From: Myxococcota bacterium
GTDB taxonomy: Bacteria > Myxococcota_C > UBA6777
DNA length: 64,000 nucleotides
Assembly (NCBI GenBank): GCA_023150835.1
Contig: JAKLKB010000003.1
Span: forward strand, 46,607-110,606
Direction: 5' to 3'
Below are positions 5,009 to 57,677 of the stretch, in pieces; the stretch's first letter is position 1; each line of letters begins with the position of its first letter. A program made the position numbers and the translations under genes. A model generated the notes under the pieces. That model was not told the DNA's origin and did not search any database. It was given only the letters and a program-made list of their open reading frames with translations.

Positions 5009-8000
5009 TCAATTACAGTCGACTTTGTAGTTGATCTCGATGGTTTGGCTGGGTTGGGGTGTGCTGGCATCGGCAAAAGCAACCGATTGCGTGGTGGGAT
5101 CGAAGGTATACGTGGCGGGAGCCGCGACTTTTCCATCGACCGAGACGGAAAGCGTGTTGGCTGTAGCACTACGGGAGAGAAAGAACCGTCGTTGGAGGCC
5201 AAAGGTCGAAGCCGCAAGGGACTTGAGCGTCACGCTCCAATCGGGCGCACAGATCGACTCGGTGCTTCCGCCAAAAGCGCCTGCAAGTGTCCAATAACGC
5301 CCGTTGGTGGTCGCATCTTGGCAAGACTTCGCTGGCATCGGCGCTGTGATCGCGGAGATCCGCACGACACGGCCACGTTGCGAACCGCGCAGACTTTCAA
5401 AAAATTGTTGGTAAAAGCCCAAGGGTTGGGGGGATTGATCGGGTTCATCCGTGACAAAGATCACGGACAACGAAGCATCGTTGCGCAAAAAGCCCAAGTT
5501 GCAGTCGGGGTTATACAGCACAGGCGGCGTCAAAGCCCGATAAGCAGCCTCTAAGCCCTGTTCGACAGCATCGCCCGTCGTTCCGACTTGAACAAGCTGC
5601 TGAAAAGCCTGCAAAAGGTTCGGTGTTTGGGGCGTAAGGATCTTGTCGTTGCTGCCGACAAAACATCCCCCGGGGCGTTGCGTGACAGGGCCTTCTTTGG
5701 GAAGACTGGTCGTCGTCACCGCGATCCGAAAATCACTTTTGCGTGTTTGGGCTTCTTGCAAAAAGATCTGGAGGTTTTGCGATAGGCTTTGTTGGCGCTT
5801 TGCCATCGAAAAAGAGTCGTCGATCACAAACAAGATATCCGCCTTTGGACTTCCAGATTGTACGAAAATATCTTTTTGTGTATCCGAAGAAGTTCCCTGC
5901 GCTTGGATGGGAATCTCCATCTCAGGCAAAGCATCGGAGTTGTTTTGGATGCGCAGGATTCCTTGATCTTGCGTGGTATCTGTGGGCGAATACCCCAGTT
6001 CGATCTCTGCGGTTTGACCGAGTTGCAGCGTAAGCGGCGTGGGCGGAGCTTTGACGATAGAAAATTCTTTTGACGTGGCGCTGCTCAAGGCGATGTTTTG
6101 GACAGCAAGGGCTTGGGGACAAAGGTTGTAAAGGGTGACGCGCTGCGTGCGAGCGCGGCAAGCCGTCATCGTGTCGTCAAAACGGATATCCTCGGGAACT
6201 GCGCGGATGCAAAGGCGAGACGCACTGCCGAGCAATTTGAGTTTCATCTCGGGACGTTGCGGATCATCACTTTTGACGGTGAGCAGATTCTCGACCCAGC
6301 TTGCGCGGGTGGGGCTGTAGCGGATCTCGATCGGAAGCTGATCCGAAGGCTTGAGGATCACAGGCGTCCCGACGGGTCGGGCAAGTTGAAGCTCTCCGCT
6401 TTGCTGCGGTGTGCTGCCGTTTGGAACGGAGACCTCTGTGATCCGGCAATCTTTGAGTCCTTCGTTGACCAACGTAATCGAACGAACTTGGGTCTTTCCG
6501 ATCGGGATGCGGCCAAAGTTTAAGGCCGCAGGGTTGGGGGCAAGTTGACAGGCTTCGACGCGCACAGGGGCTTCGAGAGGGATCTCGATCTTTGGTTCGT
6601 CAGCGTCATCGCTTTCGATGATGATCTTGCCCTTGTCATCGACGTTATCGGATGGACGGTACTCAACGAAAAATTCCAACGAAGCGTTGGGAGCAAGACT
6701 CAAGACCGGCCATGTCGCGGGGATCATGATGTAATCTTTCGAGCTACTCGCATCCAACGCGATGCGCTTGATCGTGCAAGCGCGATTGCCTTGGTTCGAA
6801 AGCGTCACGGTGATGGTCTTCTTCGATGGAAAATTCAGCGTTTTTGGATCGCTTTTCAGGTCGCATCCATCGGTGACTGCGTACACAGGAACGCTCACCT
6901 GCGGCTGTTTTGGATCGCTGTTTTCTAACACAAGCGTTGCTTGTTGGCGTGAAAGATCACTGCCCTTGTAGATCACAGGAAGCTCAAAAGACTGCCCGAC
7001 AGGGATAGACAAGGGAAAGCGCACGCTTGGATCGACGGAGAAGGGGTTCCCTGCTGCACCTTGGATCTGCGCGGAAGTGACGGTCAGTTCGATCTCACCG
7101 CGAGAAAGGATGGCGAGCTTTCGCGTGGTCTCCTTTCCTTGCGAAGTCAGCGGGAAGATCAAAAACTCGGGAACCACTTGGATCGTTGCAGTCGCCGATT
7201 GGCCGCGCAGATTGATCGAGGGGCGCGCTGCGTTGGGTTCGGCTTCTTTGCCGACAAAAAACAGTTGGGCTTGATCTTCGCCTTGATCTTGGGGACTGTA
7301 AGTGACTTGTATCTTTTGGGCCGCAGCACCCGACTTGATCGTCATTGGCAGCGAGGCCGACGCCGAAAACTCTCGTTCAGCCCCTTCCGAAAGCGCGAAG
7401 CCGGCGATCTCCCAATCAGCGGTTCCTCGGTTGGAAAGCTCGCAGTCAAGCGACTTTTTCTCTCCGATGCGAACGCTGCCAAAGTCCAACGCTGGCACGC
7501 ATGAAAACACGGGCGACGGCGCGTTGACCAAGCTCAACAACCGCACCTCAAACTTCCCTTCTTGATCTGCGTTGTCGGCATCGCTCCACAGCAACAAGCG
7601 GCCACTGGCTCCGCCCCCTTCAAGCGGCGCAAAACGCAAAGCGATCTTGGCCGTTTCTTTCGGTTGTAAAGTCAGCGGTAGATCGGGCGCTTTCGCCAAA
7701 GCAAACGAGGGGTGTGTCCCTGCCGAGAGCTCCAATTTGGTCACTTTGACCACCAAGGTTTCGGGGTTGCTCAGCTCGACTTCCAGCACGCTCTCTTTTC
7801 CAACGGGTGTCAGCGGAAACACGAGGTTGGTCGGTGTCACCGCAAGCTTGCTTCGTTTTTGTTGGGTCACTTCATCGCAGTTGCAGCCGCTTCCCATCGC
7901 AAGCACCGACAAGATCGCAAAAAAACCAACACGCCCAAACCATGCGCGTGCTTCCAACCGCGTAACTCCTATCACAAAAAAACGGCCCAACGGGGGAGCG

Positions 8001-11000
8001 AAGCGTTGTCCGACAGCCGCTTGCTTTGCTGTACGGAGATCCCCGCGTCCCCCTTCAAACTTTCCCAAGCATTCTCCTTTGCGGCGGCGAAGCACAAACA
8101 GCAACAACAAACCAATCACCCAAAATGCCCGTTCTGCGGGCGGTTGTGTTGCAGAACAACCGCATCCTCCCGGAGATTGCTTTTCGGCGTTGGGGTCGTT
8201 GTCTCCGCTTCCGCCGTCCACGATCTTCGTACCTGAGCCGCCTTCGGTGTCTTTGGGTTCACTTGGCGGCGGTTCTTGCGTACCATCCGCAGCACACTCT
8301 CCCGCCTTACACACCTGCCCTTGGGGACATTGCAACGTCAAACAAGGATCATCGACGCACTTGTTGGCCGCAGGATCACAGATGCGCCCTTCGGGGCATT
8401 TCAGCGCAGGGCATGGATCTGCAAGGCACTTTCCGCCCACACACACCTCGCCCGACGGGCATTTCACGCTCGCGCATGGGTCCTCGACGCATTGCCCTTC
8501 CACACAGCGTTTTCCTGCGGAACAAGCGATCCCCACACAAGAATCAAAGCACTTGCCCAAGCGGCAGGCTTGACCGGGCTTGCACTTCGCCGCCAAACAA
8601 GCATCCGTTTCGCACTGCCCGTTTACACAAACCGTCCCCCCCGGGCAACCGAGCCCATAACACGAGTTGTCGCGGCACTTTCCATCCCGACAAAGCTGTC
8701 CTTCTGGGCAAGTGATCGCCGCACAAGCATCGACACAACGACCTGACAAACACGCCTTGCCTTCGGGACAATCGACACCTTTGCATGGATCGCCCACGCA
8801 AAAACCTTCGATACATTGGCCGTTGTCGCTGCAATCTTGGTCTTTCTGACACGTCGCGGTGCATTTGCCTTTATAGCAGCCTTGCCCGACTTGACATGGT
8901 GCGTTGTTGTCCACGAATCCATCGCAGTTGTTATCGATCCCGTCGCAGATCTCTTCGGCGGGCTTGGGCGCGGTGCAATCTTTCCAAAAACCGTTGATAC
9001 AAGTTTCTTTGCCTTCGCCACACTCGCTTCGACAAGTGCGCGGTTCGATATCGTCGATCTTTCCATTACAATCGTTGTCTACGCCATCGCAGACTTCGGG
9101 CTGTGGCGTGAGGCCGTCGCATCCGACAAAAACGCCCGCTTCACAAGAAGCTGTCCCTTTCCCACAAGCCCCTGTACAAGGGCGTGTTGGGATACCTTCA
9201 TCCACTTGCCCGTTGCAGTCGTTGTCTTTTCCGTCGCAGATCTCGGCTTGGGGCTGGGGAGCCGAACAACTTCCCCAGACTCCGGCCTTGCAGACCTCTG
9301 TCCCCGCTCCACAAGCTGTCTGACAGGGACGCGAAAGCCCGTTGTCCACCGAACCATCGCAATCTTCGTCGGTATTATCGCAGGTTTCGGGCTTGGGTTG
9401 GCGTGCCGAACAAGCGCCCCAAACACCCGCATTACAGATCTGTTCGCCTGTCCCACAGGCCGATGTACACGAGCGTTTCACACCATTGTCGACTTGCCCG
9501 TCGCAGTCGTTGTCGGTGTTGTCGCAGATCTCGGGTGTTCCTTGACCTGCGGTGGCACTACAGCGTACGCCGTTTCCGTTGGTCGCACATTGAAAGATGC
9601 CCGATTGTTGGCAAGGTCCGACACCTGCGCTGCATGCTTGCCCGAGTTGCGTGAAGGTTTCATCGATCTGTCCGTTGCAGTTGTTGTCTACGCCGTCGCA
9701 GATCTCGGCGGTCGCCGCTCCTGCCGATGCATTGCACTCCGTCCCTGATCCATCGGCCTTGCAGACGCTGGTCCCTGTCTTTTGGCAAGCTCCCACACCT
9801 GACGTACAGCTTTTGTTTTTGTCAGGGAAATCTTCGTCGACTTGTCCATCGCAATCGTTGTCCACACCATCGCATCGCTCGGCGGTGGGGATGACTTGGC
9901 CGATGCAGTTGCCCCATTGACCGCCCGTACAAGTCTGCGTGCCTTGCTTGCAAGGCCCTTGGCCCGCTGTTCCAGCAGCCCCGCTATAACATGGGCGCGT
10001 CGTCCCGTCCGTACACTGGCAACCTTCGTCGACTTGTCCGTCGCAATCGTTGTCTTTACCGTCGCAGATCTCGGGGCTAGAGGCTCCTGCGCTTGCGCTA
10101 CAAACAAGGCTTGCGCCATCCGCACTGCACAGGAAAGTTCCGCTGCGCTGACACTCTCCAAGCCCGACCGTACAGGCTTTTCCTTTATCCGAAAAGTTCT
10201 CGTCGATTTGCCCGTCGCAATCGTTGTCTTTGCCATCGCAAAGCTCCGTCGTGGGCGTTCCCGCAGAGACCGAGCATTGCGTGGCTGTACCATCCGCCCG
10301 ACAAACAAACGTACCGCTGCGCAAGCACTCTCCAAGGCCCACAGTACAAGCGGTCCCCTTGTTTGCGAAGGTTTCGTCGATCTGCCCATTGCAGTTGTTG
10401 TCTTTGCCGTCGCAGATCTCGGTGCTTGGCGTCCCTGCGCTCACCGAGCATTGCGTGTTGCTTCCGTTCGCAGCACACACAAAAACGCCCGTACGAAGGC
10501 ACTCTCCAAGGCCAACGGTACAAACCGCTCCTTTGTTTGAGAACGTTTCGTCGATCTGTCCGTTGCAGTTGTTGTCGATCCCATCGCATATCTCGGCGGT
10601 TGCCGTCCCTGCGGTGGCCGAACATTGCGTGCCGCTGCCATTTGCAGCACAGACGAAGATCCCCGCACGAAGGCACGCACCGATCCCCACCGTACAAGCC
10701 GTCCCCTTGTTCGTGAACGTTTCGTCGATCTGTCCGTTGCAATCGTTGTCCTTGCCATCGCAAAGCTCTGCTGTGGGTGTTCCTGCGGAGACAGAACACG
10801 TCACGCCATTTTGCGCAGCGTTGCATACAAGTGTCCCGTTGCGTTGACATTCTCCGACGCCCACCGTACAAGCCGTCCCTTTGGTCGGCCAAGTTTCATC
10901 GACTCGACCATCGCAGTTGTTATCGATCCCATCACAGATCTCGGCGCTGGGTGTCCCTGCGGTGACGCTACATTGAAGTGCCGTCCCTGCTGCATTGCAT

Positions 11001-12285
11001 TGCATGACACCTGTGCGCTGACAAGCTCCGACGCCCACCGTACAAGGCGCGCCTACACCCGGCAATGCGCATCCCGAGACAGTGATCTGGCAGCTTTGAC
11101 GGGCATATTCGACCCCATCACCATAAACACACACATCGAAAGCATACGCTCCTGCGCTCGTTCCATTCGGCGGCGTCACGGTAATCCCCAACGAATGAGG
11201 CCCCGTTCCTGTCGTGACGTTGGTCATCGCATCACCACTGCTCAGCCACGTTGCATAACTTGGCGGCTGATCTTTGCACAGTTCGATGCTTAGGCGGCTA
11301 ATGGTCGAAGACAGCGCTTGCACGGTTTGTTGGATGAATTGAGCGATGTTGGCATTGTTCGGAAGATTGCCTTGTTGATCGAGTTGGTAAGCGTTGCCCA
11401 ACGTTGTTTTCGAGTGCGTCTGCCAAAACTCAAAGACCCGCAACGGCGGCCCTCCGCCAAGACTGAGCTTGTCGGGACCGCTATAAAGCGTGATTAGCGT
11501 GATGTTGTTGTTCTTGAGTCCGTTGATGGTATCGATCCACTTGATGTCATCGGCATTTCCAGCTACGCCATCTCGCCCGGGATCAGGCCCTGTCGTCAAG
11601 GTGTACGGATTCACCACCAAACTACATTCGTGTGGAAGCGCATCGCCATACAACACAACGAAACGCTTCGATCCTGCGCGCCATCCGACGTTTGTATCGT
11701 TGTAAAGCTCCCATAGCGCCCGACCATACGAAGCGGGATAATCTGTGTTGGGGTCTGTGCTGATCGTCCACGTGTTGATCGCGTTCGAAACGGCTGTCTT
11801 GTTGACGGTTATCCCTTGATCCAAACGATACGGATAGTCTTGGCCCGAACCGTACAACACCGCACCGCCTGTCGAGGTTTGGTAATTACAATATTTATAC
11901 GAGTTTCTGTAATCCTTAAAAGAAAAAGCCCCGAAATAAGTATCTGGGATCGCTGTCGTAATCTGGTTCATAATGCTTGTGGAGGTGGCTTTGGCCTTTG
12001 CCACCTCATCCACCATCGAAGATGTCAAGTCACTCCCAAAGATCACATCCGCCTTGGGTGGAACGGACGGCAGCGTCAGCGAGATCGTGCGGCGGATGCT
12101 TTGCCCTGCCGTCAACGTATCGTTGCAAAGGTTGGTTGCGGCTTGCTGCACAACGCCCAACGCTGGCTCGCCTGTGTCCTTGTTTTTGCCTGTGATATCG
12201 GCTTGGTCGGGAGACACACAAGCCCAACTCCACCAAAATACCCCCATCCATACCATCCACGAACGCTGCTTCCACATACGCATAC
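5009..12285 (-). CDS. Giant secreted multidomain protein: signal peptide, vWA, about 20 Myxococcus cysteine-rich repeats, EGF-like Cys-rich modules, internal MYXO-CTERM-like tail, lipoprotein-like signal, repeated beta-sandwich domains and C-terminal vWA
   Basis: The ORF is 2506 aa from 12529. The likely true start is MRMWKQRSW at 12285, which has a GAGGAGAGGGAAG RBS and lies downstream of an intergenic repeat copy. Repeats of CDGxDNxCxGxxDE and CTVGxGxCxRxG are visible. PGGCGCSATQPPAERAFWVIGLLLLFVLRRRKGE sits mid-protein (coding about 8060-8170). It is followed by FFAILSVLAMGSGC (about 7885-7960). A DDSFSM MIDAS motif lies near the C-terminus. Confidence 0.7.
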
Positions 12286-12477
12286 TTCCCTCTCCTCTCA
12301 CACGCCTCTGTCGTTGCGCTCGCCAAACCAAGCAGACCGCGCACCCACACAGAACAAACAAAGCGGCCATACCGCACCTTGTCGAACCCCAAACCAAACC
12401 GCTCAAAAAAACTTTTATACACCCGCCTTTGAAGATTTCATCCCCACAAATCCCCCATGTTCGGACCACTTCAAGCG

Positions 12478-12592
12478 ACTCAGACGTCGGTTTGAAAAAA
12501 CGATGTTCTCTTCGCCTACACAGGGTCAAGGGAGCCGCGCTCTATGGCGGGGCGTGGGGCAGCGCCCCATACGCGCCTTGTTAAGGTGGAAA
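12478..12592 (-). repeat. Structured intergenic repeat family 1, copy E (5' leader of giant protein gene)
   Basis: Shares the blocks ggggcgctgcccc ... gcggctcccttgaccc(t/c)gtgt(a/t)ggcgaa.ag.acatcgtttttcaaacc.acg with five other copies. It is co-oriented with the gene downstream. Confidence 0.8.
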
Positions 12593-12825
12593 CCTCGTAG
12601 AGTCGGTCTTGATCGCCTTTTTTTTTCTCCCCCCCTCAATCCCCCCGGCCAACGGGGGGAAGTTGGAACGGGCAGCGTCTGCATCTCGTGCATACAGCGT
12701 GCGTCATGAAAAAACAAAATCCCCGATGCTTCCGACTTTCGCTCCTTCCCCTGTTCACGGGGGAGGGCGGGGTGGGGGGCTTTCCTCCGCTTCACCTAAC
12801 GCCTATGGGGCAGCGCCCCACAAAT

Positions 12826-12877
12826 CTATCCAACCCATCCAACCTATCCGACCTATCCGACATATCCAACTGCACCA
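12826..12877. repeat. Tandem octamer array (c/t)atccaacc / atccgacc, 5-6 units, in the divergent promoter region
   Basis: tatccaacccatccaacctatccgacctatccgacatatccaactg is seen directly. The array lies between the divergently transcribed giant protein gene and the lipoprotein gene at 13115. Confidence 0.7.
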
Positions 12878-13114
12878 CCCCGCAGCGGAAAAAAAATGAG
12901 AGCTTTTTTTTTCGCTTCGACAACCCTCCCCGAAAACGCGATCTGCTTTTGGGGATAGCCTCGCCCCACCAAAGCAAACCCCAATAACGGAACTTTTGCT
13001 ACACAAAATATTTCGTTATCATGGATTCGCTTATCTTCACTATCTGAGGCAAAAAAAAACTTTTTTCTTGCTAGAAAACGCGAATAGACTGGATCACCAA
13101 GAAAGGATTCTTCG

Positions 13115-14590
13115 ATGCAGACGAAGCGACTTTTTTATCTTTTGACGCTCCTTGGTCTGATGGCTGTCCCTCATCTGATGGTGTCGGGTTGTGCAAGTCC
13201 CCGTTGTGGCGATGGTATCGTTCAGAAGGATTACACCGACTCAAGCGGTGCGACTGTGACGGAAGAATGTGATGACGGAAACAGCGACAACACCGATGGT
13301 TGCACCAGTTCGTGCAAGCTGGCCGTCTGCGGGGATGGGTATATCCAAACAGGGGTGGAAGAGTGCGACAACGGCAGCAAAAATGCCGATGATGCGACGT
13401 GTACCAAGTCGTGCAAGATCGCCAAGTGCGGTGACGGCCTTGTCCAAAAAGGTGAAGAGTGCGACGACGGCAACACCAACAACAACGATGCTTGCCTCAA
13501 CACCTGCGTCAAAGCCACCTGTGGCGATGGCTTCGTTCAAAAAGATGTTGAAGAGTGCGATGACGCCAACAAAAACAACAACGATTCTTGTACAAACGCT
13601 TGCAAACTAAACGTCTGTGGGGACGGCTTTGTGCATATAGGTGTTGAAGCCTGTGACGATGGAAACCAAGAAGACACCGATGGTTGCACCAAGCTTTGCC
13701 GCCTTCCGACTTGCGGCGATGGCATCGTCCAAAAAGGCGAAGAGTGCGACGACGGCAACAACACCAACACCGATGCTTGCCTCAATACTTGCATCAAAGC
13801 CTCTTGTGGCGATGGTATCATCCAAGCCGGAACCGAAGAGTGCGATGACGCCAACAAAAACAACAACGACGGATGCACCAACACTTGCAAGATCGCCAAA
13901 TGCGGTGATGGTTTCGTCCAAAAAGATGTCGAAGAATGCGACAACGGCCCCAACAACAGCGACACAGGCTCCTGCACAACCGCTTGCAAAAAAGCCACTT
14001 GCGGCGACGGCTTTGTCCAACCGGGCGAAGAGTGCGACGACGGCCCGAACAACAGCAACACAGGCGCTTGTACGCTTGCTTGTAAAAAAGCCAAGTGCGG
14101 TGACGGCCTTGTCCAAAAAGGCGTCGAAGAATGCGACGACGGCAACACCAACGACGGGGATTGGTGCAACGCAACCTGCAAACGCGAGTGCATCCTTGGA
14201 AGCGCCAAAAAACTCGATGGCAACAGTTGTTATATGGCCTTTAACACCACGCTATCTTGGCGTGACGCAGCAGCCGCTTGTTCGATCGTCGGAGCGCACC
14301 TTGCCAACATCGGAAGCGCCGCCGAAAACACCCTTGTCACCGACTTGATCAAGACAGGCGCAGCCGCTTGGATCGGTTTGACCGATCAATACGGCGAAGG
14401 CACCTTTGTTTGGGACGAAGGCAAAAACCGCTATACCGCCCCCACCTTTACCAAATGGGCCGCCAACCAACCCGACAACAACCCGGGCGGCAACGCAAAC
14501 TGCGCGCAGATATCCACCACAGGCGACTGGTCTGACGAAGCCTGCACCCAACTCAAACCCTACGTTTGCAAATACACTTGGCCTCAATAG
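13115..14590 (+). CDS. Lipoprotein with about 9 Myxococcus cysteine-rich repeats and a C-terminal C-type lectin-like domain
   Basis: Signal peptide with a VSGC lipobox. Repeats of CGDGxVQxGEECDDGNxxNNDxCxxxC. The C-terminus WIGLTDQYGEGTFVWDEG...CAQISTTGDWSDEAC...YVCK matches the C-type lectin WIGL / WxD / Cys pattern. RBS AAGAAAGGA. Confidence 0.8.
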   Translation: MQTKRLFYLLTLLGLMAVPHLMVSGCASPRCGDGIVQKDYTDSSGATVTEECDDGNSDNTDGCTSSCKLAVCGDGYIQTGVEECDNGSKNADDATCTKSCKIAKCGDGLVQKGEECDDGNTNNNDACLNTCVKATCGDGFVQKDVEECDDANKNNNDSCTNACKLNVCGDGFVHIGVEACDDGNQEDTDGCTKLCRLPTCGDGIVQKGEECDDGNNTNTDACLNTCIKASCGDGIIQAGTEECDDANKNNNDGCTNTCKIAKCGDGFVQKDVEECDNGPNNSDTGSCTTACKKATCGDGFVQPGEECDDGPNNSNTGACTLACKKAKCGDGLVQKGVEECDDGNTNDGDWCNATCKRECILGSAKKLDGNSCYMAFNTTLSWRDAAAACSIVGAHLANIGSAAENTLVTDLIKTGAAAWIGLTDQYGEGTFVWDEGKNRYTAPTFTKWAANQPDNNPGGNANCAQISTTGDWSDEACTQLKPYVCKYTWPQ

Positions 14591-14646
14591 CGAAGATGCC
14601 CTCCCTCCGTTTTCAACAGTTTTGCTCCGCTGAGGAGGTTTTTTCC

Positions 14647-17600
14647 ATGAGGCGATTCATTCTTTCCATCATCGGCATCCTTTGGATCGCCATCGCAGCC
14701 ACTTCGTGCGGCCCCGGCCCGTACTGCGGCGATGGAATCCCCCAAGAAGGCGAAGAATGCGACGATGGCAACTCCATCAATACCGATGGCTGTACTGCGG
14801 CTTGCAAAAAAGCCGTATGCGGCGACGGTTACATCCAAAAAGGCGTCGAAGAGTGCGATGATGGCAACAAAAACGCCGATGACGCCGCTTGTTCCAAATC
14901 CTGCAAACGCTCTCTTTGTGGCGATGGCATCGTCCAAAAAGGCGAAGAGTGCGACGACGGCAACAAAAACAACAACGATGAATGTACCAACGCTTGCACC
15001 AAAGCCACTTGTGGCGATGGCATCGTCCAAAAAGGCGAAGAATGCGACGACGGCAACAAAAACAACAACGATGAATGTACCAACGCCTGCAAACTCAACG
15101 TCTGCGGTGATGGCTTTGTCTTCGTTGGTGTCGAAGAGTGCGACGATGGCAACAAAAACGATGGCGACGGCTGCTCGAATCAATGCAAAGGCAGTCGCTG
15201 TGGTGATGGTGTTGTCCAAGCCAACGAAGCCTGCGATGACGGCAACAAAAGCAACAACGACGCTTGCTTAAACAATTGCACAAAAGCCCGTTGTGGCGAT
15301 GGTATCGTCCATCTCGGCGTCGAGTTGTGCGATGACGGCAAAGACAACGGCCCCGGCAAAAAATGTACAGCCCAATGCACGCTCCCGACTTGCGGCGATG
15401 GCATCGTCCAAGCTGGCGAACAATGCGACGACGGCAACGCTTCCAACAACGACGCTTGCCTCAATACCTGCGTCAAGTCCTCCTGCGGTGATGGCTTTGT
15501 CCAACCGGGCGAAGAGTGCGATGATGGCAACAAAAACAACCACGACGGCTGCACCAACGACTGCAAGATCGCCCGTTGTGGCGATGGCATCGTTCAAATC
15601 GGTGTCGAAGAGTGCGATGATGGCAACAAAAACAACCACGACGGCTGCCTCAATACCTGCAAACGCGCTGTTTGTGGCGACGGTGTTGTGCGCGCAGGCA
15701 TCGAAGACTGCGATGACGCCAACCGCGATAACACCGATGGCTGCTTGATTAACTGTCGATCGTATGATCCATGCGCCAACTTTCAGATCGATCAACTACA
15801 ACCTGCCGTCGCTTGCGTGGGACTTGTGCCCAACCGCATCAAGATCCTTGGCGATGGCTTCTTGCGTATCGACGGAACCGATCCCACCGTTCGTTTCCAA
15901 GGCAACCCCCTCACGATCACCAGTCTTACACAATGCCAGCCCGAACAAGGCAACTTCTTGCGCATCGATCGCTGCAAAGAGATCGAAGTCGCCCTCCCCG
16001 CTGGCCTCGGCGCAGGGGCCTATCAAGTGGCCGTCACCAACGCCACCACCAAACAATGCGAAGCCAAGGCGATCTTTAGTGTTGGCCCTCGACCCACTAT
16101 CACCCAAGTCCGTCCCAACGAGACTTGCGAAGGCCGCTTGACCAGCTTTACTTTGCTCGGAACAGGCTTTACCCCAAGCACTCAAGTGACATTCCGTCGC
16201 GGTGGCAATACCTTTTCTCCCAACAGCTTCCGTTATGTCAGCGCCACCGAGATCGAAGTGATCTTTAACGCCCTTGATCCCGGACAATACGACGTCACCG
16301 TCTCCAACGGTGCGGGTTGTGATTCCACGCTACCGCTTGCAGTGACGGTCTACAAAAATCCCCTTGTCTTCTTTGTCGATCCCGAAGTGGCTTACAACCA
16401 GATCAGCCTTCAAGCGACACTCTACTTGACAGGACTCAACGGCCCGGGCGTCACCTTTGTCGGTATCCGCCGCAGTGGTTCAGGAGATCCCTTTACCAGC
16501 GTGTCCTTTACCTTTGACCCAAGCCGCCCAAGCAAAACGCTAATCGAGTTGCCCAAGAACCTCACCCCCGACGAATACGACGTGTTGGTGCGGGATGCCA
16601 AAACGTGCGAAAACACCCTTCCCAAGGGCTTTAAGGCAACCAACACCACGACGCTCTTTGTCAAAGCCATCGATCCGCCCTTTGGTTGGGCGCAAACCGA
16701 AACAGCCGTCACACTCACCTCCGAAAATCCAGCCCCCGCTGGCAAAGTTCCCTTTCAAAACGGCGTCCGTGTCTACCTCAGCCCAAGCACAGGAACAGGG
16801 CTTTCCTCACCGCTCAACGCGGTAGCCTTTGTCAAATCCACCGAAGTGACGGGCCTCGTCCCCAAACTTCCTGTCGGCGAATATGACGTTGTCGCCGTAA
16901 ATCCCGATGGAACAGTCGGTGTTCTACAAAAAGGCTTCCGCATCACCCAAGAAGCCCCTCCCGTCATCGCCAGCATCGCTCCCGGATCGATCCCCAACTC
17001 CAGCACCGAAACCGTGATCGTGCGTGGCCAAGGCTTCCGAACAGGAGCCACGGCCCAACTCGAATGTCGCGATCCTGCCGGAACGATCACCACACGAACG
17101 ATCCCCATCACCAACACCCAAAGCACTCAAGTCACGCTGTCTATCGCTTCGGGGATATCCGCAGGCTCCGTTTGCATCGTTCGCGTCACCAATACGGACG
17201 GAACCTACGGCGAATTCTCGGCGCTTGGTGTGACGAACCCCGCCGAAAATATCGGTGCGCCCAAGCTGTTGACCTCCAACCTTGTGACGGGACGCCGCGC
17301 CTTGGCCGCCATCTCAGGGCGTCCCACACTCAGCGCACGCTTTCTCTACGTCTTGGGTGGCGATACAGGAACCGTCGCAAACGCCCTTGATTCCGTCGAA
17401 GCCGCACCCGTCAACCGTTTCGGAGACGTCGGCGCATGGGCCGCCCTCCCCGTAAAACTTCCCAACCGACTGACCTTTGCCTCGGCCCAACGCATCGAAC
17501 GATTCATCTATATCGTCGGCGGAAACAACGGTGCATCAGCGCAAAACAAAGCCTACCGTGCCGAAGTCTTGCGCCCAAGCGATGCTCCGCAGATCCGCGA

Positions 17601-23403: not shown

Positions 23404-24717
23404 TTATCCAGCGCGCTCCGCTTCGGCCATCGCCATCATCACCAAAGTTGCCGCGATCAATGGGATATTTTTGGTGAGTGGGCCAAAGGGATGCACCCAA
23501 AACGACGGGCTCCCGTACGTCAAGATCCCCATAAATCCAAACATCAACAAAAGCTGCAAAGCCCCCATCCATCGGAGCCGAAACCCGATCGCGGTGCAGA
23601 TCCCCAAAACGATCTCGAGATAACTCGTCCCATACAACGCGATCTTTGCAAGGATGCCCGTCAAGCCAACGCCCGCAAGCAACTTGAGGCTCTCTTGTTC
23701 GGGGTAGATCCAAGCCGAGACGATGCCTGTTGCGATCCAGATGAACGCCACAGACCACTGCACAACAAGACGCAACGGTGTTAAATAAGCTGCCCATCGG
23801 GCTTCTACGCTGCGCGGCCTGCGAGAGATCCCCAATGCAAACGGCATCGGTGAAAAACCAAAGATCTGCACAAACCGCGTGTTGTCACAATGATTGCCCC
23901 GCAACAACATACCCAATTCATCGCGTGATATCGGACCTCTTCCGCCAAGCAGATCGGTGATCCAAGCCAGCACGCTCATCCACCACAACGGCAGATGCAG
24001 CCGAAACGCGCCGTTGTTTTTTCCCAACCAGACAGCCAAGGTGTCCAACATCGCGTTAAAAGAAAGCGCCTCCGCTCCGCCTACATCCACCGCAACATCC
24101 GCGATATCGTCGTCTTCAACGGCTCGCGTGATGGCGCTGACCAGATCTTCCACATGGATCGGTTGCACAAGGTACTCTCCATCCCCAACCACGGGCGTCA
24201 CAGGCAGCGCAGCCAACGAAGTAAAAAAAGTCATCGAGTGATCTTGCGGGCCGTACACAAAGGACGGACGCAACACAACGTAGGGGATCCCCAAGCTCGC
24301 AAGATGCTGATCTGCGGCGCGTTTGCTTTGGTGGTAGTGACTTTTGGCCCCTTCATCCGCCCCCAACGCGCTAAGTTGAATGATCTTTTTTATACCCGCC
24401 TGTTTTGCCGCATCAAAAAACGCGATCGGAGCGGCCTGATGCAAGATATCAAATCGCGCCTCACCTTGTTCGCGGATGATCCCCACAAGGTTGATCGCGA
24501 TATCATGGCCTTGCAAAGAGTTCGCCCATGCGGCGGGTTGCGCAAATTCCCCCGCCACACACCGCACGCCCGACCACTGCATCTGCTCGACCCATCCGAC
24601 TTGCTTTCCCCGCAACAACACCGTCACTCGATGGCCCCGTTTCGATAGCGCTTCCAACACATGACGACCGATAAATCCGCTTCCACCCGTTAGAAAAATC
24701 GTCTTTCCTTCTGGCAT
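23404..24717 (-). CDS. Atypical SDR NAD(P)-binding epimerase/dehydratase-like domain fused to C-terminal DoxX-like membrane domain
   Basis: The start MPEGKTIFLTGGSGFIGRHV has a GAGGG RBS and a TGGxGxxG Rossmann motif. The C-terminal ~130 aa form 3-4 TM helices typical of DoxX. Confidence 0.7.
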   Translation of the reverse strand: MPEGKTIFLTGGSGFIGRHVLEALSKRGHRVTVLLRGKQVGWVEQMQWSGVRCVAGEFAQPAAWANSLQGHDIAINLVGIIREQGEARFDILHQAAPIAFFDAAKQAGIKKIIQLSALGADEGAKSHYHQSKRAADQHLASLGIPYVVLRPSFVYGPQDHSMTFFTSLAALPVTPVVGDGEYLVQPIHVEDLVSAITRAVEDDDIADVAVDVGGAEALSFNAMLDTLAVWLGKNNGAFRLHLPLWWMSVLAWITDLLGGRGPISRDELGMLLRGNHCDNTRFVQIFGFSPMPFALGISRRPRSVEARWAAYLTPLRLVVQWSVAFIWIATGIVSAWIYPEQESLKLLAGVGLTGILAKIALYGTSYLEIVLGICTAIGFRLRWMGALQLLLMFGFMGILTYGSPSFWVHPFGPLTKNIPLIAATLVMMAMAEAERAG

Positions 24718-24856
24718 CACACCCTCGCTCTTCGTTCCCAAAAAATGCGCTTGACGTCCACAGCCAGATGCTGCAACTCTTCCCATGACGCGCCAAAAGA
24801 CCATACATCGCTTTGTCTTTTTTCAATAGGACACAACGGGCAAGGAATTCTTTGAC

Positions 24857-28536: not shown

Positions 28537-31068
28537 TCAAGACACCCATGAAACACGATCGATACGGTGGGCGTTTCGTCGCCTGCGCCACACACCCCAA
28601 CACAACCATCCCAACAGCCAAAAAGCCAGCCCCAAAGACTCTTGCGAAAGCACAGACTGACAAGAACATCCGAAGGCTCGGGGTTTGAACTCGGAGCCGT
28701 TGGGAACCAAGCAGACTTTCGTGCTATCGGGCTGTTGAACACAGATCGCATTGCCATCGCAGCTTCCGTCGCTACGACAAGGGCCACCAAAGGCCCCAGC
28801 CGCCCGTTCCGTTAGATCTCCGTCAAGCGGTCCGGCATCTGGGGGGCGCGATCCATCAGGAGGCCGTGACTCGGTGCTGCTTCCGCCTTCTTCACGAACG
28901 CTTGTGTTTTCTCCGCTATTTTCGCTTGTGCTTTCGGTACTTGCGTTCCCTTCGGGAGAACTCGCTTGGCAGAGACTATCCAAACACACCTGCCCTTGGG
29001 GACATCGACAATCTTGTGGGCAAGAGTCACATGCCTCTCCTTCTGCACAACGCCCGTCTCCACAATTCGCCAACGGCTTACACAGGCCGTTGTTGCAAGC
29101 TAAACCCTCTGGGCAAAGACAGTCGGCCTTACACGCATCGCATGTTTCGTTGTTGTCACAGATGCCGTTGCCACATTGCGGCTTATTTTCTTCGCATTTT
29201 CCTGCGTTGCAGATCTGTGTTGGCGGACACGCGCAATCTTGCGCACACGTCGCGCAATTTTCGCTTGCATCACACGCTCCGTTGCCGCACGTGGAAGGCG
29301 TGATGCAGATCCCTCCTTGACATTGTTGTCCGCTCGGGCAGGGGCAATCCTTTGGACACGAACTGCAATCCTCGTTGCCATCGCAGCTTCCGTTTCCACA
29401 AACGGCTCCTCCGCTTGGAATACAAAAATTCCCATCGCACGCATACCCTGTCGGACACGTACCGCCCCCGCGCTGTGCGCAAGCGCCAAGGCCCAGATTC
29501 CCCAGCACCTCTTTGTTGCAGTTGTATCCGCTCGCACAATCTGTATCCCCACGACACAAACAAAACGGCGTACCGCTGTTGATCCGCCCGCAAAGTCCGC
29601 CTGCTGCTGCTGCGCACGTACTGTTGCTCGAACAGCTCCGCAAACAAGCACTCAAACCGACGTTGTCGATGCAAGAAGTTCCCGCCGCACACGACGAACA
29701 AGACGAGCCGGGCGCTCCGTTCGGAAAGCCCCCTGTCCCTGTTCCACAAGCCACCGTACAGATCTGCCCCTTGGAAGTGTTTTGACAGATCGTCCCCGCC
29801 ACACACGGGATATTGGCATTGCAAGGCTGACCGAGGTTGGCGGGTTGTGCTTCGATACAAGCCTGATTCTTACAGACAAAACCTGCGGCGCAATCCGCAT
29901 CGCTCTGACACATTTTTTGGCAGCGACCATTTTGGCAAGTCTCGTTGCTCCCACATTCGTTGGTCGTTGCGCAAGGAGCATCGGGGCATTTGTTGGTGTC
30001 GGGCATACAAAGCATCGAAGCTCCCGAAGATTGGCACTTTGTACCCGAAGGACAACAGCCTGCGGCATCGCAGCGCAACAAACAGCGCGAACGGCCATCG
30101 ACTTGGGCGCAGGCACCACCACCACAATCGGCATCTTGACGGCATGGCTTACAGTTTTGGGGTGGGATGGGAAACGTCTTAGGGCCGCACTTTCCGCCTA
30201 CACAATCACGACACGTCCCGCACTGCGCCGCCGAAGTGCAGCCTGTGGTCGGGTAGATCGTACAAACCCCCGACTCTTCGTCCGAAGTGATGCCGTTAAA
30301 CAACGGCCCCACACCACGCACCGAAAAATACATCAGCGAAGAACGCGGGGCTGTATGTCCGAAACCAAGGGCATGACCGATCTCGTGCGCGGCAACGTCG
30401 GCAAAGTCCATCTCGTTGGCTTGTACGTTGGGCGTCATCCCCCACAAACGCCCCGAAGGAAGGGGGTTAAAAGCGATATCCGCATCGATCAACGAACCAT
30501 TCGATGACACCGCTGGTTGCGTCACCGCAAGCACCGAAGAAGGCAGCCGCATCGCCGACCAATCCGCACTCGACGGCAACCAACACACCAAACGCCGATC
30601 CGAAGGATTCCCTTTGGTGGTGGTTTGTCCCAGATAATTGTGCGCAAAGTCCGTACAACTCGGCTGCTTCCAAGCATCCCAAGCCGCTTTTAAAGTTGCC
30701 TCGATGGTGGTTCCTGTCTTGCCTTGGTATCCGCCCTGCCCGGGCATGTTGTTGAGGTTGAGATACCATCCCACAGGCAAAGCAGGCCACTTGTACGGAT
30801 TTCCGCCCACACATTCATTCTGCGCAGCGCAAGTCGCCAGTCCCGAACTCAGCGGATCACAACACGCATCCGCTCCGCCCGCGTTGCCGATCGTCGTGCG
30901 ACAAGAGGTCTGGGTTTGCTTGCATTGTCCGCCCGTCGTCAACGAGTGCCACGCCAAAGCCGCCGATGTACCAAAGAAAAACACCGATACACACAAACAG
31001 AAAAATACCGCACTCCACAAACCAAAGCCAAGTTCCGACCTCACCGTGCTACCCTCGTTGCGACTCAT
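28537..31068 (-). CDS. Secreted matrixin-like (metzincin) zinc metalloprotease with Cys-rich EGF-like region and MYXO-CTERM-type C-terminal anchor
   Basis: Signal peptide. HEIGHALGFGH matches HExxHxxGxxH, followed by a Met-turn-like LMYF. About 400 aa of Cys-rich modules follow. The C-terminus FGCSCQSVLSQESLGLAFWLLGWLCWGVWRRRRNAH is a GC motif, TM helix and Arg cluster. Confidence 0.8.
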   Translation of the reverse strand: MSRNEGSTVRSELGFGLWSAVFFCLCVSVFFFGTSAALAWHSLTTGGQCKQTQTSCRTTIGNAGGADACCDPLSSGLATCAAQNECVGGNPYKWPALPVGWYLNLNNMPGQGGYQGKTGTTIEATLKAAWDAWKQPSCTDFAHNYLGQTTTKGNPSDRRLVCWLPSSADWSAMRLPSSVLAVTQPAVSSNGSLIDADIAFNPLPSGRLWGMTPNVQANEMDFADVAAHEIGHALGFGHTAPRSSLMYFSVRGVGPLFNGITSDEESGVCTIYPTTGCTSAAQCGTCRDCVGGKCGPKTFPIPPQNCKPCRQDADCGGGACAQVDGRSRCLLRCDAAGCCPSGTKCQSSGASMLCMPDTNKCPDAPCATTNECGSNETCQNGRCQKMCQSDADCAAGFVCKNQACIEAQPANLGQPCNANIPCVAGTICQNTSKGQICTVACGTGTGGFPNGAPGSSCSSCAAGTSCIDNVGLSACLRSCSSNSTCAAAAGGLCGRINSGTPFCLCRGDTDCASGYNCNKEVLGNLGLGACAQRGGGTCPTGYACDGNFCIPSGGAVCGNGSCDGNEDCSSCPKDCPCPSGQQCQGGICITPSTCGNGACDASENCATCAQDCACPPTQICNAGKCEENKPQCGNGICDNNETCDACKADCLCPEGLACNNGLCKPLANCGDGRCAEGEACDSCPQDCRCPQGQVCLDSLCQASSPEGNASTESTSENSGENTSVREEGGSSTESRPPDGSRPPDAGPLDGDLTERAAGAFGGPCRSDGSCDGNAICVQQPDSTKVCLVPNGSEFKPRAFGCSCQSVLSQESLGLAFWLLGWLCWGVWRRRRNAHRIDRVSWVS

Positions 31069-57448: not shown

Positions 57449-57677
57449 TGTTGTCTTTCCGACAGCACAGACGAAGTGTCCGAGTGTTCGGGGTGGGGGG
57501 CCAACCATCGCTTAACAAGGCGCGTATGGGGCGTCGCACAACGACGGGGTGAGGGTGAAACGAACATGGGAGGCCCTCTGGGTACTTGCCAGAACAAGCG
57601 AACCTGCGCAAGATCCATCCGTCCATAAGGCCCGCACCGATCGACCCGACGGATGCGCCCATCTTCACGGAGTTTGG

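What the first reader, a model, noticed from the sequence alone, without database searches (positions are those of the whole stretch)
7880..8175. Complete MYXO-CTERM tail followed in frame by a complete lipoprotein signal peptide inside one 2506-aa ORF
Mid-protein, the giant ORF reads PGGCGCSATQPPAERAFWVIGLLLLFVLRRRKGE. This is a textbook C-terminal MYXO-CTERM: a GC motif, a TM helix and an Arg cluster.

About 35 codons later comes RVGFFAILSVLAMGSGCNC, an N-terminal lipoprotein-type signal with no in-frame ATG before it. There is no stop codon between the two.

One possibility is that two adjacent genes were fused by stop-codon loss, or by an assembly or sequencing error. Gene 1 would be vWA plus about 20 Cys-rich repeats plus EGF-like modules plus a sorting tail. 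Gene 2 would be a lipoprotein with repeated beta-sandwich domains and a vWA.

The other possibility is a genuine single polyprotein that is split by the sorting protease. That would be an unusual way to co-produce an anchored adhesin and a lipoprotein.
Basis: seen in the sequence. Interest (0 to 1): 0.65.

Follow-up and report, generated by a model that had tools for sequence, protein, structure and literature searches.

The report
Conserved adhesin-lipoprotein fusion with frameshift signal
Two neighbouring surface-protein genes of a myxobacterium-like organism really are joined into one reading frame, as they also are in a distant relative, and the joint carries a conserved RNA signal that looks like a programmed ribosome slip, which would let the cell make either the first protein alone or both proteins as one chain.

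Summary
One ORF (12283..5009, minus strand, 2424 aa from its ATG) holds a MYXO-CTERM sorting tail that scores above NCBIfam's cut-off. No stop codon follows it, and 38 codons later a complete lipoprotein signal begins.

It is not a sequencing error. An independently assembled relative (GCA_020633035.1, 78% amino-acid identity, synonymous sites saturated) has the same stop-less junction, and all indels there are multiples of three. A more distant relative (50% identity, two independent assemblies) has the same two genes as separate cistrons whose stop and start overlap (ATGA). All 80 other family members retrieved from genome contigs are stand-alone lipoproteins. The fusion is therefore real, derived and old.

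The linker is conserved at nucleotide level, not protein level (pN 0.25, pS 0.27, against pS of about 0.7 in the flanking genes). The conserved blocks are:
- an in-phase G_GGA_AAG slippery heptamer;
- a -1-frame TGA one codon later;
- a 6-nt spacer;
- a 12-bp G+C-rich hairpin;
- an upstream GGAG.

This is the layout of the dnaX/IS911 -1 frameshift signals. Slipping would end the adhesin 8 residues after its Arg cluster. Not slipping would give a polyprotein. The frameshift is inferred, not shown, and rests on only two sequences.

The parts
5009..12283 (-). Whole fused ORF: ATG 12283 to the stop at 5011..5009, 2424 aa in the zero frame
   Evidence: Shine-Dalgarno GAGAGGAGAGGG before ATG 12283. 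The orthologue P0018 (2408 aa) aligns end to end at 78% identity.
8072..12283 (-). Adhesin module ('gene 1'): signal peptide, vWA-like domain, MopE-type and Cys-rich repeats, disordered spacer, MYXO-CTERM
   Evidence: Pfam and NCBIfam scans. pN 0.126 against pS 0.76 versus the orthologue.
8078..8173 (-). MYXO-CTERM sorting signal: GGCGC motif, TM helix FWVIGLLLLFVL, RRRK
   Evidence: TIGR03901 at 27.8 bits (cut-off 20). The same signal is internal in P0018 (26.2 bits) and terminal in L085 (32.4 bits).
8074..8078 (-). Shine-Dalgarno-like AGGAG, 7 nt upstream of the slippery heptamer (possible 5' stimulator)
   Evidence: Sequence. L083 has GGAGGG 8 nt upstream of its heptamer.
8060..8066 (-). 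In-phase slippery heptamer G_GGA_AAG (zero-frame codons GGA, AAG)
   Evidence: identical and in phase in window and L083, inside a 13-nt invariant block; one of only 5 X_XXA_AAG heptamers in 17,821 codons of the window.
8055..8057 (-). TGA in the -1 frame, reached after one codon (GTT) following a -1 slip. The product would end ...RRRKGECLGKV (1409 aa).
   Evidence: Conserved in L083.
7992..8053 (-). Hairpin starting 6 nt after the heptamer. Stem GGGGGA[C]GCGGGG / CUUCGC-UCCCCC (12 bp), with a variable apical stem.
   Evidence: Window fold -36.1 kcal/mol, z -1.95. L083 fold -35.7 kcal/mol, z -3.59. RNAalifold gives 20 shared pairs, 2 of them compensatory. The 3' arm lies in a 15/15 invariant block.
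7976..7982 (-). U7 run 9 nt after the core stem (2 nt after the extended stem). It is terminator-like in the window only.
   Evidence: Not conserved in L083.
7973..7975 (-). In-frame GTG conserved in both genomes (possible internal start of the lipoprotein; no Shine-Dalgarno sequence)
7955..7970 (-). AGGAG (7970..7966), 8 nt, then TTG (7957..7955): canonical ribosome-binding site and start for the lipoprotein. Present in the window only.
   Evidence: same geometry as other genes of the window; AGGAG occurs 0.73 times per kb per strand.
7883..7957 (-). Lipoprotein signal peptide MEARAWFGRVGFFAILSVLAMGSG|C
   Evidence: Lipobox rule and hydropathy. Aligns with the signals of stand-alone homologues.
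5012..7885 (-). Mature lipoprotein module ('gene 2'): six choice-of-anchor-D/ASH Ig-like domains and a C-terminal MIDAS/vWA domain
   Evidence: Homologues of 970-990 aa. dN/dS 0.07 versus the orthologue.

Best explanation
This is a real, evolutionarily retained in-frame junction of two genes that in a related lineage are separate, translationally coupled cistrons. The first gene encodes a MYXO-CTERM-anchored, Cys-rich vWA adhesin. The second encodes a choice-of-anchor-D/vWA lipoprotein.

The junction is not a passive linker. It carries a conserved RNA element laid out like the dnaX/IS911 type of programmed -1 ribosomal frameshift signal: GGAG, 7-8 nt, G_GGA_AAG in phase, a 6-nt spacer, then a stable G+C-rich hairpin.

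Proposed mechanism (inferred):
- Ribosomes that slip -1 read one more codon (Val) and stop. They release a 1409-aa adhesin whose MYXO-CTERM tail ends 8 residues after the Arg cluster, like an ordinary myxosortase substrate.
- Ribosomes that do not slip continue into the lipoprotein and make a 2424-aa chain.
- In that chain the MYXO-CTERM helix (N-out/C-in), a +9-charged cytoplasmic loop and the lipoprotein signal (N-in/C-out) form a membrane hairpin.
- Myxosortase on one side, and Lgt/LspA on the other, could then release the same two mature surface proteins.
- The lipoprotein would thus be made at a fixed, lower ratio to the adhesin. In the window an internal start (AGGAG + TTG 7957) may add to this.

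Shown here: the fusion, its conservation, the nucleotide-level constraint and the geometry of the elements.
Inferred: that slipping happens, how efficient it is, and the proteolytic processing.

My layer-by-layer estimates:
- real conserved fusion, about 0.93;
- functional RNA structure in the linker, about 0.8;
- actual programmed -1 frameshifting, about 0.45.
The confidence given for this explanation is that of the full chain, including frameshifting.
For: Fusion is real and old:
- The exhaustive protein search found P0018, 2408 aa, which matches gene 2 at residues 1442-2406 with 79% identity.
- It lies in a syntenic locus of GCA_020633035.1 and is annotated as one protein, MCB9640115.1.
- Its MYXO-CTERM is internal as well.
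- The junction has no stop in either genome, and its indels are 15 and 24 nt.
- Synonymous sites between the two genomes are saturated (pS 0.70-0.76). Both modules are under purifying selection (pN 0.126; dN/dS 0.07 for gene 2).

The two-gene state exists:
- In L084 and L085 (independent assemblies, 50% identity), gene 1 ends ...RRRAPNARLAKERNR* and its TGA overlaps the ATG of gene 2.
- All 80 other family members retrieved from genome contigs are stand-alone genes.

RNA-level constraint on the linker:
- The linker has pN 0.25 and pS 0.27.
- Identity by codon position is 0.69/0.85/0.69, against 0.83/0.89/0.46 elsewhere in the ORF. The binomial P for position 3 is 0.014.
- A true intergenic region between the same two genomes is almost unalignable.
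- The invariant blocks are TGGGAAAGTTTGA, GGGGG..GCGGGGA and ACGCTTCGCTCCCCC.

Structure:
- The hairpin is -36.1 kcal/mol in the window and -35.7 kcal/mol (z -3.59) in L083.
- It has 20 shared pairs, 2 of them compensatory. The apical part differs by a 15-nt indel.
- The U-run after the hairpin is not conserved, which argues against a terminator.

Specificity:
- Of 95 in-phase XXXYYYZ heptamers in 17,821 codons of the window, this one has the most stable downstream 75 nt (-33.2 kcal/mol; background first percentile -31.4).
- A -1 stop follows after one codon.
- The element is unique in the window and in the loci fetched.

Literature:
- G_GGA_AAG is highly shift-prone in E. coli (PMC5009743).
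- It is the lambda G/GT frameshift site (PMC3296357, Table 1).
- Stimulatory structures start 5-8 nt downstream, and IS911 uses an upstream GGAG (PMC4066793).
- In dnaX, 50% of ribosomes shift to -1 and stop one codon later (PMC5009743).
- Internal MYXO-CTERM ORFs are known but rare, and sorting tags work mid-protein (PMC11980579).

Topology: two hydrophobic segments, a loop of net charge +9 and a lipobox are present in both genomes.
Against: - Only two sequences carry the fused junction, so covariation and synonymous-site statistics are thin: position-3 P is 0.014, and 2.5% of same-size windows in the ORF are as conserved.
- The window's own hairpin z-score is only -1.95.
- The GGAG-to-heptamer distance (7-8 nt) is shorter than what I recall for dnaX (10 nt; own knowledge).
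- A_AAG slipperiness in E. coli depends on having a single tRNA-Lys(UUU) (PMC5009743). The tRNA set of this organism is unknown: no tRNA genes lie in the window. From my own knowledge, G+C-rich Myxococcota often also carry tRNA-Lys(CUU).
- The window has a good ribosome-binding site plus TTG for the lipoprotein, so read-through is not needed to express it there.
- Codon usage of the linker does not discriminate coding from non-coding (likelihood ratio about 1).
- Keeping the frame open could be partly luck. The probability of no new stop after 26 substitutions is 0.38; multiplied by 1/3 to 1/27 for the indels, this gives about 0.01-0.13 overall.
- There are no expression or proteomic data.
Confidence: 0.45

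Rival explanations
1. The fusion is real and retained, but there is no recoding. The hairpin is an inherited intercistronic element, such as an mRNA stabiliser, processing site or attenuator, and the heptamer is coincidence. The products would be the full-length chain, cut by myxosortase and Lgt/LspA into adhesin and lipoprotein, and/or lipoprotein made from an internal start (GTG 7975 or TTG 7957).
For: - The same evidence for a real fusion applies.
- The internal GTG is conserved, and the window has AGGAG + TTG.
- The topology and lipobox are intact.
- The literature already proposes that an internal MYXO-CTERM (MXAN_5598) is processed in place (PMC11980579).
- In the window a U7 run follows the hairpin.
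Against: - It does not explain why the 13-nt block holding the in-phase heptamer and the -1 TGA is invariant, while its pairing partner in the lower stem is not conserved.
- It does not explain why the stem starts exactly 6 nt after the heptamer.
- It does not explain why this is the most structured of the 95 heptamer contexts.
- The U-run is absent in L083.
Confidence: 0.38
2. It is a sequencing or assembly artefact: a missed stop, or a 1-nt indel in the short homopolymers between 8080 and 8058. Adding one base there would give ...RRRKRRMLGKV*, or a similar ending, at the TGA 8057..8055.
For: - A single inserted base anywhere in 8080..8058 would restore a natural-looking end.
- Family-wide, gene 2 is a separate gene.
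Against: - An independent assembly of a 78%-identical orthologue has the same open junction, and its indels are in multiples of three.
- Long intact ORFs cover 97% of the window.
- No split domains were found in the overlapping-ORF pairs tested.
Confidence: 0.03
3. It is a decaying locus: a recent stop-loss in a gene pair that is becoming a pseudogene, with no function for the joined frame.
For: Fusions by stop loss are expected at low frequency. Codon usage of the linker is uninformative.
Against: - Both modules are under strong purifying selection (pN 0.126; gene 2 dN/dS 0.07).
- The junction has stayed open over a divergence at which synonymous sites are saturated.
- The linker contains conserved islands, whereas true intergenic DNA has randomised.
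Confidence: 0.04

Closest known systems
MXAN_5598 of Myxococcus xanthus: an ORF with an internal MYXO-CTERM (Guo, Haft & Wall 2025, mBio, PMC11980579)
   Same: A large adhesin-like N-terminal part ends in a MYXO-CTERM and is followed in frame by a second envelope protein. The authors suggest a fusion of two genes and processing of the tag in place, and they note that such ORFs are rare.
   Different: There the downstream part is an OM beta-barrel/OmpA (TraB-like) protein. Here it is a lipoprotein that keeps its complete signal peptide and lipobox. No frameshift-like cassette is described for MXAN_5598, and I could not fetch its DNA to look. The proteins are not homologous in their C-terminal halves.
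E. coli dnaX programmed -1 frameshift (tau/gamma)
   Same: The layout is an upstream Shine-Dalgarno-like element, an X_XXA_AAG heptamer, a 6-nt spacer and a stem-loop. The -1 frame stops after one codon. One ORF therefore yields a short product and a long product that carries extra C-terminal domains (PMC5009743).
   Different: The heptamer is G_GGA_AAG rather than A_AAA_AAG. The GGAG lies 7-8 nt upstream rather than 10 nt. The gene is unrelated. Frameshifting here is untested. The long product would be a two-protein chain with an internal sorting signal.
IS911/IS3 and phage lambda G/GT -1 frameshift sites
   Same: Lambda uses the identical heptamer GGGAAAG (PMC3296357). IS911 uses an upstream GGAG and a downstream structure (PMC4066793).
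   Different: In those systems the slip extends the protein into a new ORF (a transframe fusion). Here the slip would truncate it, and the zero frame gives the fusion. This locus is chromosomal and is neither a mobile element nor a phage.
traA-traB of M. xanthus and the L084/L085 gene pair (overlapping cistrons)
   Same: A MYXO-CTERM Cys-rich surface receptor gene is followed directly by a partner envelope-protein gene, with overlapping ORFs that couple their translation (PMC11980579).
   Different: Those are two reading frames with a stop. The window and L083 have one frame and no stop.
Haloferax volcanii ArtA substrate with a non-terminal tripartite sorting signal (Abdul Halim et al. 2017, cited in PMC11980579)
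   Same: A C-terminal-type sorting signal functions although more protein follows it.
   Different: It is an archaeosortase/PGF-CTERM system in an archaeon, and no second signal peptide follows the tag.

Membership tests
MYXO-CTERM sorting domain (TIGR03901) | Signature motif with the invariant Cys (GC / GCGC) | tested here: met
   GGCGCS at residues 1454-1459. HMM score 27.8 bits against a cut-off of 20.
MYXO-CTERM sorting domain (TIGR03901) | Transmembrane helix followed by an Arg-rich cluster | tested here: met
   AFWVIGLLLLFVL followed by RRRK.
MYXO-CTERM sorting domain (TIGR03901) | Located at the extreme C-terminus of the protein | tested here: not met
   In the zero frame 1022 codons follow it. 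It would be met, with 8 residues after RRR, only if ribosomes slip -1 at 8066..8060.
MYXO-CTERM sorting domain (TIGR03901) | Host encodes myxosortase MrtX (CPBP family) | not testable with these tools
   Only 64 kb of the genome is available, and none of the 30 window ORFs scanned against Pfam gave a CPBP (PF02517) hit. A second, normal MYXO-CTERM protein in the window (28537..31068) implies that the pathway exists.
Bacterial lipoprotein signal peptide (PROSITE PS51257-type) | Positively charged n-region, hydrophobic h-region, and a lipobox ending in Cys | tested here: met
   ILSVLAMGSGC matches the pattern, as does LFASLGVLGAC in L083. It aligns with the signals of stand-alone homologues.
Bacterial lipoprotein signal peptide (PROSITE PS51257-type) | Sits at the N-terminus of the translated product | tested here: inconclusive
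   This holds only if translation starts at TTG 7957 (AGGAG 8 nt upstream, window only) or at the conserved GTG 7975 (no Shine-Dalgarno sequence). In the long ORF the signal is internal.
Choice-of-anchor-D / vWA lipoprotein family (gene 2) | Repeated choice-of-anchor-D (ASH/Ig-like) domains plus a C-terminal MIDAS/vWA domain, about 970-1000 aa, with its own lipoprotein signal | tested here: met
   NF012200 at 185.8 bits with 6 matched stretches, plus a MIDAS-family hit. Full-length alignments to P0001, P0003, P0005, P0008 and P0019.
Programmed -1 ribosomal frameshift signal (dnaX/IS911 type) | X_XXY_YYZ heptamer in phase with the zero frame | tested here: met
   G_GGA_AAG with zero-frame codons GGA and AAG, in both the window and L083.
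Programmed -1 ribosomal frameshift signal (dnaX/IS911 type) | Stable downstream structure starting 5-8 nt after the heptamer | tested here: met
   6-nt spacer, 12-bp G+C-rich stem, -36 kcal/mol in both genomes. It is the most stable of the 95 heptamer contexts in the window.
Programmed -1 ribosomal frameshift signal (dnaX/IS911 type) | Conservation of motif and structure among orthologues, with reduced synonymous variability | tested here: inconclusive
   Conserved in both available sequences. pS is 0.27 against about 0.72 in the flanks, with 2 compensatory pairs. But n = 2 and the position-3 P is 0.014.
Programmed -1 ribosomal frameshift signal (dnaX/IS911 type) | Two protein products actually made, dependent on the heptamer | not testable with these tools
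   This needs reporter assays, proteomics or ribosome profiling.
Programmed -1 ribosomal frameshift signal (dnaX/IS911 type) | A tRNA repertoire that makes A_AAG slippery (a single tRNA-Lys UUU) | not testable with these tools
   No tRNA genes lie in the window, and the rest of the genome is not available.
Intrinsic (Rho-independent) terminator | G+C-rich hairpin immediately followed by a U-run, conserved in orthologues | tested here: not met
   The window has U7 after the extended stem. L083 has CUGUUCGCAACUUUGUG instead. The consensus scan did not call a terminator here.

The most novel reading that the evidence does not exclude
A cellular, non-mobile bacterial gene uses a dnaX-like programmed -1 frameshift placed directly behind a C-terminal sorting signal. 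Slipping gives a normal myxosortase substrate. Not slipping gives an adhesin-lipoprotein polyprotein whose internal MYXO-CTERM helix and internal lipoprotein signal form a membrane hairpin. That hairpin would be cut on both sides, by myxosortase and by Lgt/LspA. Recoding would thereby replace stop/start translational coupling as the device that fixes the ratio of two surface proteins.

In the window the frameshift stop lies at the foot of a hairpin followed by a U7 run. The choice of frame might therefore also decide whether transcription continues.
Probability: 0.4. Interest if true: 0.82.

Novelty: new variant of a known kind. Interest (0 to 1): 0.62.

Why it matters
Programmed -1 frameshifting in bacterial chromosomal genes is known for only a handful of cases, such as dnaX and cso2. 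A conserved candidate that decides whether a sorting signal is terminal or internal would be a new use of recoding.

It would also give a natural test case for two open questions about the recently defined myxosortase pathway. The first is whether MrtX can process a MYXO-CTERM that is followed by a large polypeptide. The second is whether Lgt/LspA can act on an internal signal peptide.

For genome annotation the practical lesson is that an ORF with a sorting tail in the middle need not be an error. Neither splitting it nor calling it a single protein (as in MCB9640115.1) captures the likely products.

Tried and rejected
- **Word-indexed protein search.** Searches with gene 2 plus the tail, with the junction alone and with the gene-1 N-terminus found nothing closer than 30% identity for gene 2 and missed the 79% relative. 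Only the exhaustive representative search found it. Until then I favoured 'two genes, possibly a homopolymer error'. I abandoned that reading.
- **Source genome.** A look-up of a neighbouring window protein found no record of the source genome.
- **Genome-contig scan.** It returned only distant family members. None had a MYXO-CTERM gene directly upstream, which first suggested that the adjacency is not conserved. That conclusion was later corrected by L083, L084 and L085.
- **First metagenome scan.** It found no relative.
- **Codon-usage scoring of the 38-codon linker.** It could not tell coding from non-coding (likelihood ratio about 1).
- **Terminator reading.** The consensus terminator scan did not call the junction hairpin. 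I dropped the terminator reading because the U-run is absent in L083.
- **Sigma-54 or sigma-70 promoter in the conserved block.** I considered this by eye and rejected it, because the spacing is wrong and there is no -10 box.
- **Rfam.** It has no family for the element.
- **Repeated element.** The element is not a repeat.
- **Other long homologues** (P0037, P0038, P0067, P0085, P0098, P0123). They are only longer repeat arrays, not fusions.
- **Pervasive frameshift errors in the window.** I looked for them and found none.

Full report
**1. The observation**

The minus-strand ORF 5009..12529 is open for 2506 codons. Residues 1453-1484 (window 8173..8078) read PGGCGCSATQPPAERAFWVIGLLLLFVLRRRK.
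- On the isolated tail, NCBIfam TIGR03901 (MYXO-CTERM) scores 27.8 bits against a curated cut-off of 20. It scores 21.5 bits within the whole ORF.
- Three profiles of C-terminally anchored proteins run out 1-2 residues after K1484, so a stop would be expected at about codon 1486-1488. There is none.
- Thirty-eight codons later come in-frame GTG (7975) and TTG (7957) codons.
- The segment that follows...RAWFGRVGFFAILSVLAMGSGC, fulfils the lipobox rule.

The true start of the long ORF is ATG 12283. It is preceded by GAGAGGAGAGGG, which gives 2424 aa. A second, ordinary MYXO-CTERM protein in the window (28537..31068, a matrixin) ends 12 residues after its RRRR. The organism therefore uses this sorting system.

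**2. Each half as a family**

The C-terminal 982-988 residues have six choice-of-anchor-D/ASH Ig-like domains and a MIDAS/vWA domain.
- Homologues are stand-alone proteins of 970-990 aa that begin with their own lipoprotein signal.
- In 80 genomic loci across Myxococcota and Bradymonadia, every homologue lies in an ORF of 985-1490 codons (measured stop to stop). Every locus whose contig reaches the 5' end shows its own signal peptide, often ...SGCDC or ...GCNC as in the window.
- None of the 80 is fused, and none has a MYXO-CTERM gene directly upstream.

In the window, TTG 7957 has AGGAG 8 nt upstream. That is the same geometry as other genes here, and AGGAG occurs only 0.73 times per kb per strand. 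At this stage the locus looked like two genes with a missing stop. One extra base anywhere in 8080..8058 would give a natural end at the TGA 8057..8055. I therefore suspected a homopolymer error.

**3. The relatives change the picture**

The exhaustive search of 1.84 billion representatives found P0018. It is 2408 aa long, and its residues 1442-2406 are 79% identical to gene 2.
- It is MCB9640115.1 of a Myxococcales MAG (GCA_020633035.1), annotated as one protein.
- Its locus (L083) is syntenic upstream: a 491-aa protein, a 1335-aa DUF4215/TIG protein and an amidohydrolase.
- It aligns with the window ORF end to end at 78% identity.
- Its MYXO-CTERM is internal too (26.2 bits).
- Its junction reads ...LRRRGGIRVGKFDGGSGELRASARRFAPPVRNFVKSPIFRHWVLFVLFASLGVLGACNCDE..., with no stop, and differs from the window by 15-nt and 24-nt indels.

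Two independent assemblies of organisms whose synonymous sites are saturated (pS 0.70-0.76) share the open junction. That excludes a local sequencing error.

The next relative is P0019 (50% identity, 990 aa). It is seen in two independent assemblies, L084 from ENA and L085 from MDTC01. There the same gene pair exists as two cistrons. The upstream gene ends with a MYXO-CTERM (...GGCGCQTQAGSTPSLPLSLLLLFALFAFVRRRAPNARLAKERNR*, 32.4 bits). Its TGA overlaps the ATG of the lipoprotein gene (ATGA), with AAGGAG upstream.

So the pair is an old unit. It is coupled by stop/start overlap in one lineage and joined in frame in the other.

**4. The linker is constrained as nucleic acid**

Between the window and L083 both modules evolve under purifying selection (pN 0.126; gene 2 dN/dS 0.07).

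The 26 alignable linker codons behave differently.
- They have pN 0.25 and pS 0.27.
- Identity by codon position is 0.69/0.85/0.69, against 0.83/0.89/0.46 in the rest of the ORF.
- Third-position identity of 18/26 has a binomial P of 0.014, and 2.5% of equal-sized windows reach it.

A genuine intergenic region of the same two genomes is 831 versus 346 nt long and barely alignable, apart from small islands such as the Shine-Dalgarno sequence. The linker's invariant blocks are therefore functional islands: TGGGAAAGTTTGA (13/13), GGGGG..GCGGGGA and ACGCTTCGCTCCCCC (15/15).

**5. What the blocks are**

- **Slippery heptamer.** In both genomes the first block contains G_GGA_AAG in phase with the zero frame (codons GGA and AAG).
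- **-1 stop.** A -1 slip would be followed by GTT and then TGA (window 8057..8055).
- **Hairpin.** Six nucleotides after the heptamer a stem begins. It is GGGGGA[C]GCGGGG paired with CUUCGC-UCCCCC in the window and GGGGG[U]AGCGGGG with the same 3' arm in L083. The two substitutions move the bulge and keep 12 pairs.
- **Variable apex.** The apical part differs by a 15-nt indel but still pairs, with one compensatory change there.
- **Stability.** The energies are -36.1 kcal/mol (z -1.95) in the window and -35.7 kcal/mol (z -3.59) in L083.
- **Upstream GGAG.** It lies 7 nt upstream of the heptamer in the window and 8 nt in L083.
- **Lower stem.** The partner of the GUUUGA lower stem is not conserved, while the heptamer side is.
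- **U-run.** The window's U7 run after the hairpin is absent in L083. A terminator or simple pairing therefore does not explain the conservation.

Among 95 in-phase XXXYYYZ heptamers in 17,821 codons of the window, this one has the most stable downstream 75 nt (-33.2 kcal/mol; background first percentile -31.4). Only five heptamers belong to the X_XXA_AAG class. The element is unique in the window and in 1.57 Mb of related loci. Rfam has no family for it.

**6. Comparison with known recoding signals**

- G_GGA_AAG is described as highly shift-prone in E. coli (PMC5009743) and is the lambda G/GT site (PMC3296357).
- Stimulatory structures start 5-8 nt downstream, and IS911 has an upstream GGAG (PMC4066793).
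- In dnaX half of the ribosomes slip to -1 and stop one codon later, which gives a short and a long product (PMC5009743).

The layout here is the same, and the biological logic is clear. The slip would end the adhesin at ...RRRKGECLGKV, 8 residues after the Arg cluster. Normal tails in this material end 1-12 residues after it.

**7. Proposed working (inferred)**

- Slipping ribosomes make a 1409-aa MYXO-CTERM adhesin.
- Non-slipping ribosomes make the 2424-aa chain.
- In that chain the sorting helix, a loop of net charge +9 and the lipoprotein signal would form a membrane hairpin with both large domains outside the cytoplasm.
- Myxosortase cuts at the lipidated Cys of MYXO-CTERM. According to the literature, sorting tags work even when they are not terminal (PMC11980579).
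- Lgt/LspA could then free the lipoprotein at Cys1549.
- The lipoprotein would thus be produced at a fixed fraction of the adhesin, which is what ATGA coupling achieves in the L084/L085 lineage.
- Internal initiation (the conserved GTG, and AGGAG-TTG in the window) may contribute.

The frame has stayed open through 26 substitutions and several indels. This is mildly improbable by chance: 0.38 for no new stop, times 1/3 to 1/27 for the indels. It suggests that read-through matters.

**8. Caveats**

- Only two sequences carry the junction.
- The statistics are modest.
- The GGAG spacing is shorter than in dnaX.
- The tRNA-Lys repertoire is unknown.
- Codon usage is uninformative.
- Nothing is known about expression.

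I put the real, conserved fusion at about 0.93, a functional RNA structure at about 0.8 and true programmed frameshifting at about 0.45. The main rival is a retained fusion without recoding, in which the hairpin has another role.

**9. Novelty**

Internal MYXO-CTERM ORFs have been noted as rare and as probable gene fusions (MXAN_5598; PMC11980579), so the bare observation is a new member of a known oddity. Three points are new:
- the documented two-gene and one-frame states of the same pair;
- a complete lipoprotein signal retained behind the tag;
- a conserved frameshift-type cassette exactly at the boundary.

I found no paper linking myxobacteria with ribosomal frameshifting in the library searched.

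Noticed in passing
window 28537-31068 (-), tail at 28671-28576: A second MYXO-CTERM protein (843 aa, matrixin/Peptidase_M10 hit) ends normally...FGCSCQSV...WRRRR, then 12 residues, then a stop. This shows that the sorting pathway is in use in this genome and gives the natural tail length.
   Followed up: partly
window 24610 (-), inside ORF 23404-24804: Another in-phase G_GGA_AAG heptamer has unusually stable downstream RNA (-30.3 kcal/mol over 75 nt, near the 1st percentile). It lies in an epimerase/DoxX-fusion gene, and the -1 frame stays open for 33 codons. It is probably chance.
   Followed up: no
window 14566-18660 (+) versus L083 4034-8041 (-): The L083 orthologue of the DUF4215/TIG/Kelch protein (1335 aa) ends in a MYXO-CTERM (GGCGCTSQPQESFFFGCLLLLLFAFRRRRLA*). 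The window's 1364-aa ORF ends ...NTLESSVW* with no tail. The window copy has either lost the tail or has a different C-terminus.
   Followed up: partly
L086-L089 (ENA/Logan/TARA marine metagenome contigs), protein P0168: A stand-alone 390-aa protein is 73% identical to the N-terminal vWA-like module of the adhesin. It sits in a different gene context, next to an MFS/cNMP-binding protein. The adhesin's head domain therefore also circulates as a small separate protein.
   Followed up: partly
window 12284-13114 (divergent intergenic region upstream of the fused ORF): This intergenic region is unusually long: 831 nt against 346 nt in L083. It holds a 9-nt tandem repeat (CTATCCAAC x5, 12826-12870) and two copies of the palindromic GGGGCGCTGCCCC. 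Only small islands, such as the Shine-Dalgarno sequence, are shared with L083.
   Followed up: no
window 57549-61325 (+): A 1258-aa AAA+ protein (ClpB-like AAA_2 and D2-small domains) also gives a PCRF (peptide chain release factor) domain hit at residues 905-1037. This is an unusual combination.
   Followed up: no
method:: The word-indexed search of 5.8 billion proteins did not return the 79%-identical orthologue, although that protein is in the collection. Only the exhaustive HMMER search found it. Relying on the first search alone would have led to the wrong verdict, namely a probable sequencing error.
   Followed up: yes
window 7976-8060 (-): In the window only, the -1-frame stop lies at the foot of a hairpin that is followed by a U7 run. 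Termination of translation there could allow a terminator-like structure to form, while read-through ribosomes would melt it. This coupling is speculative, and the U-run is not conserved in L083.
   Followed up: partly
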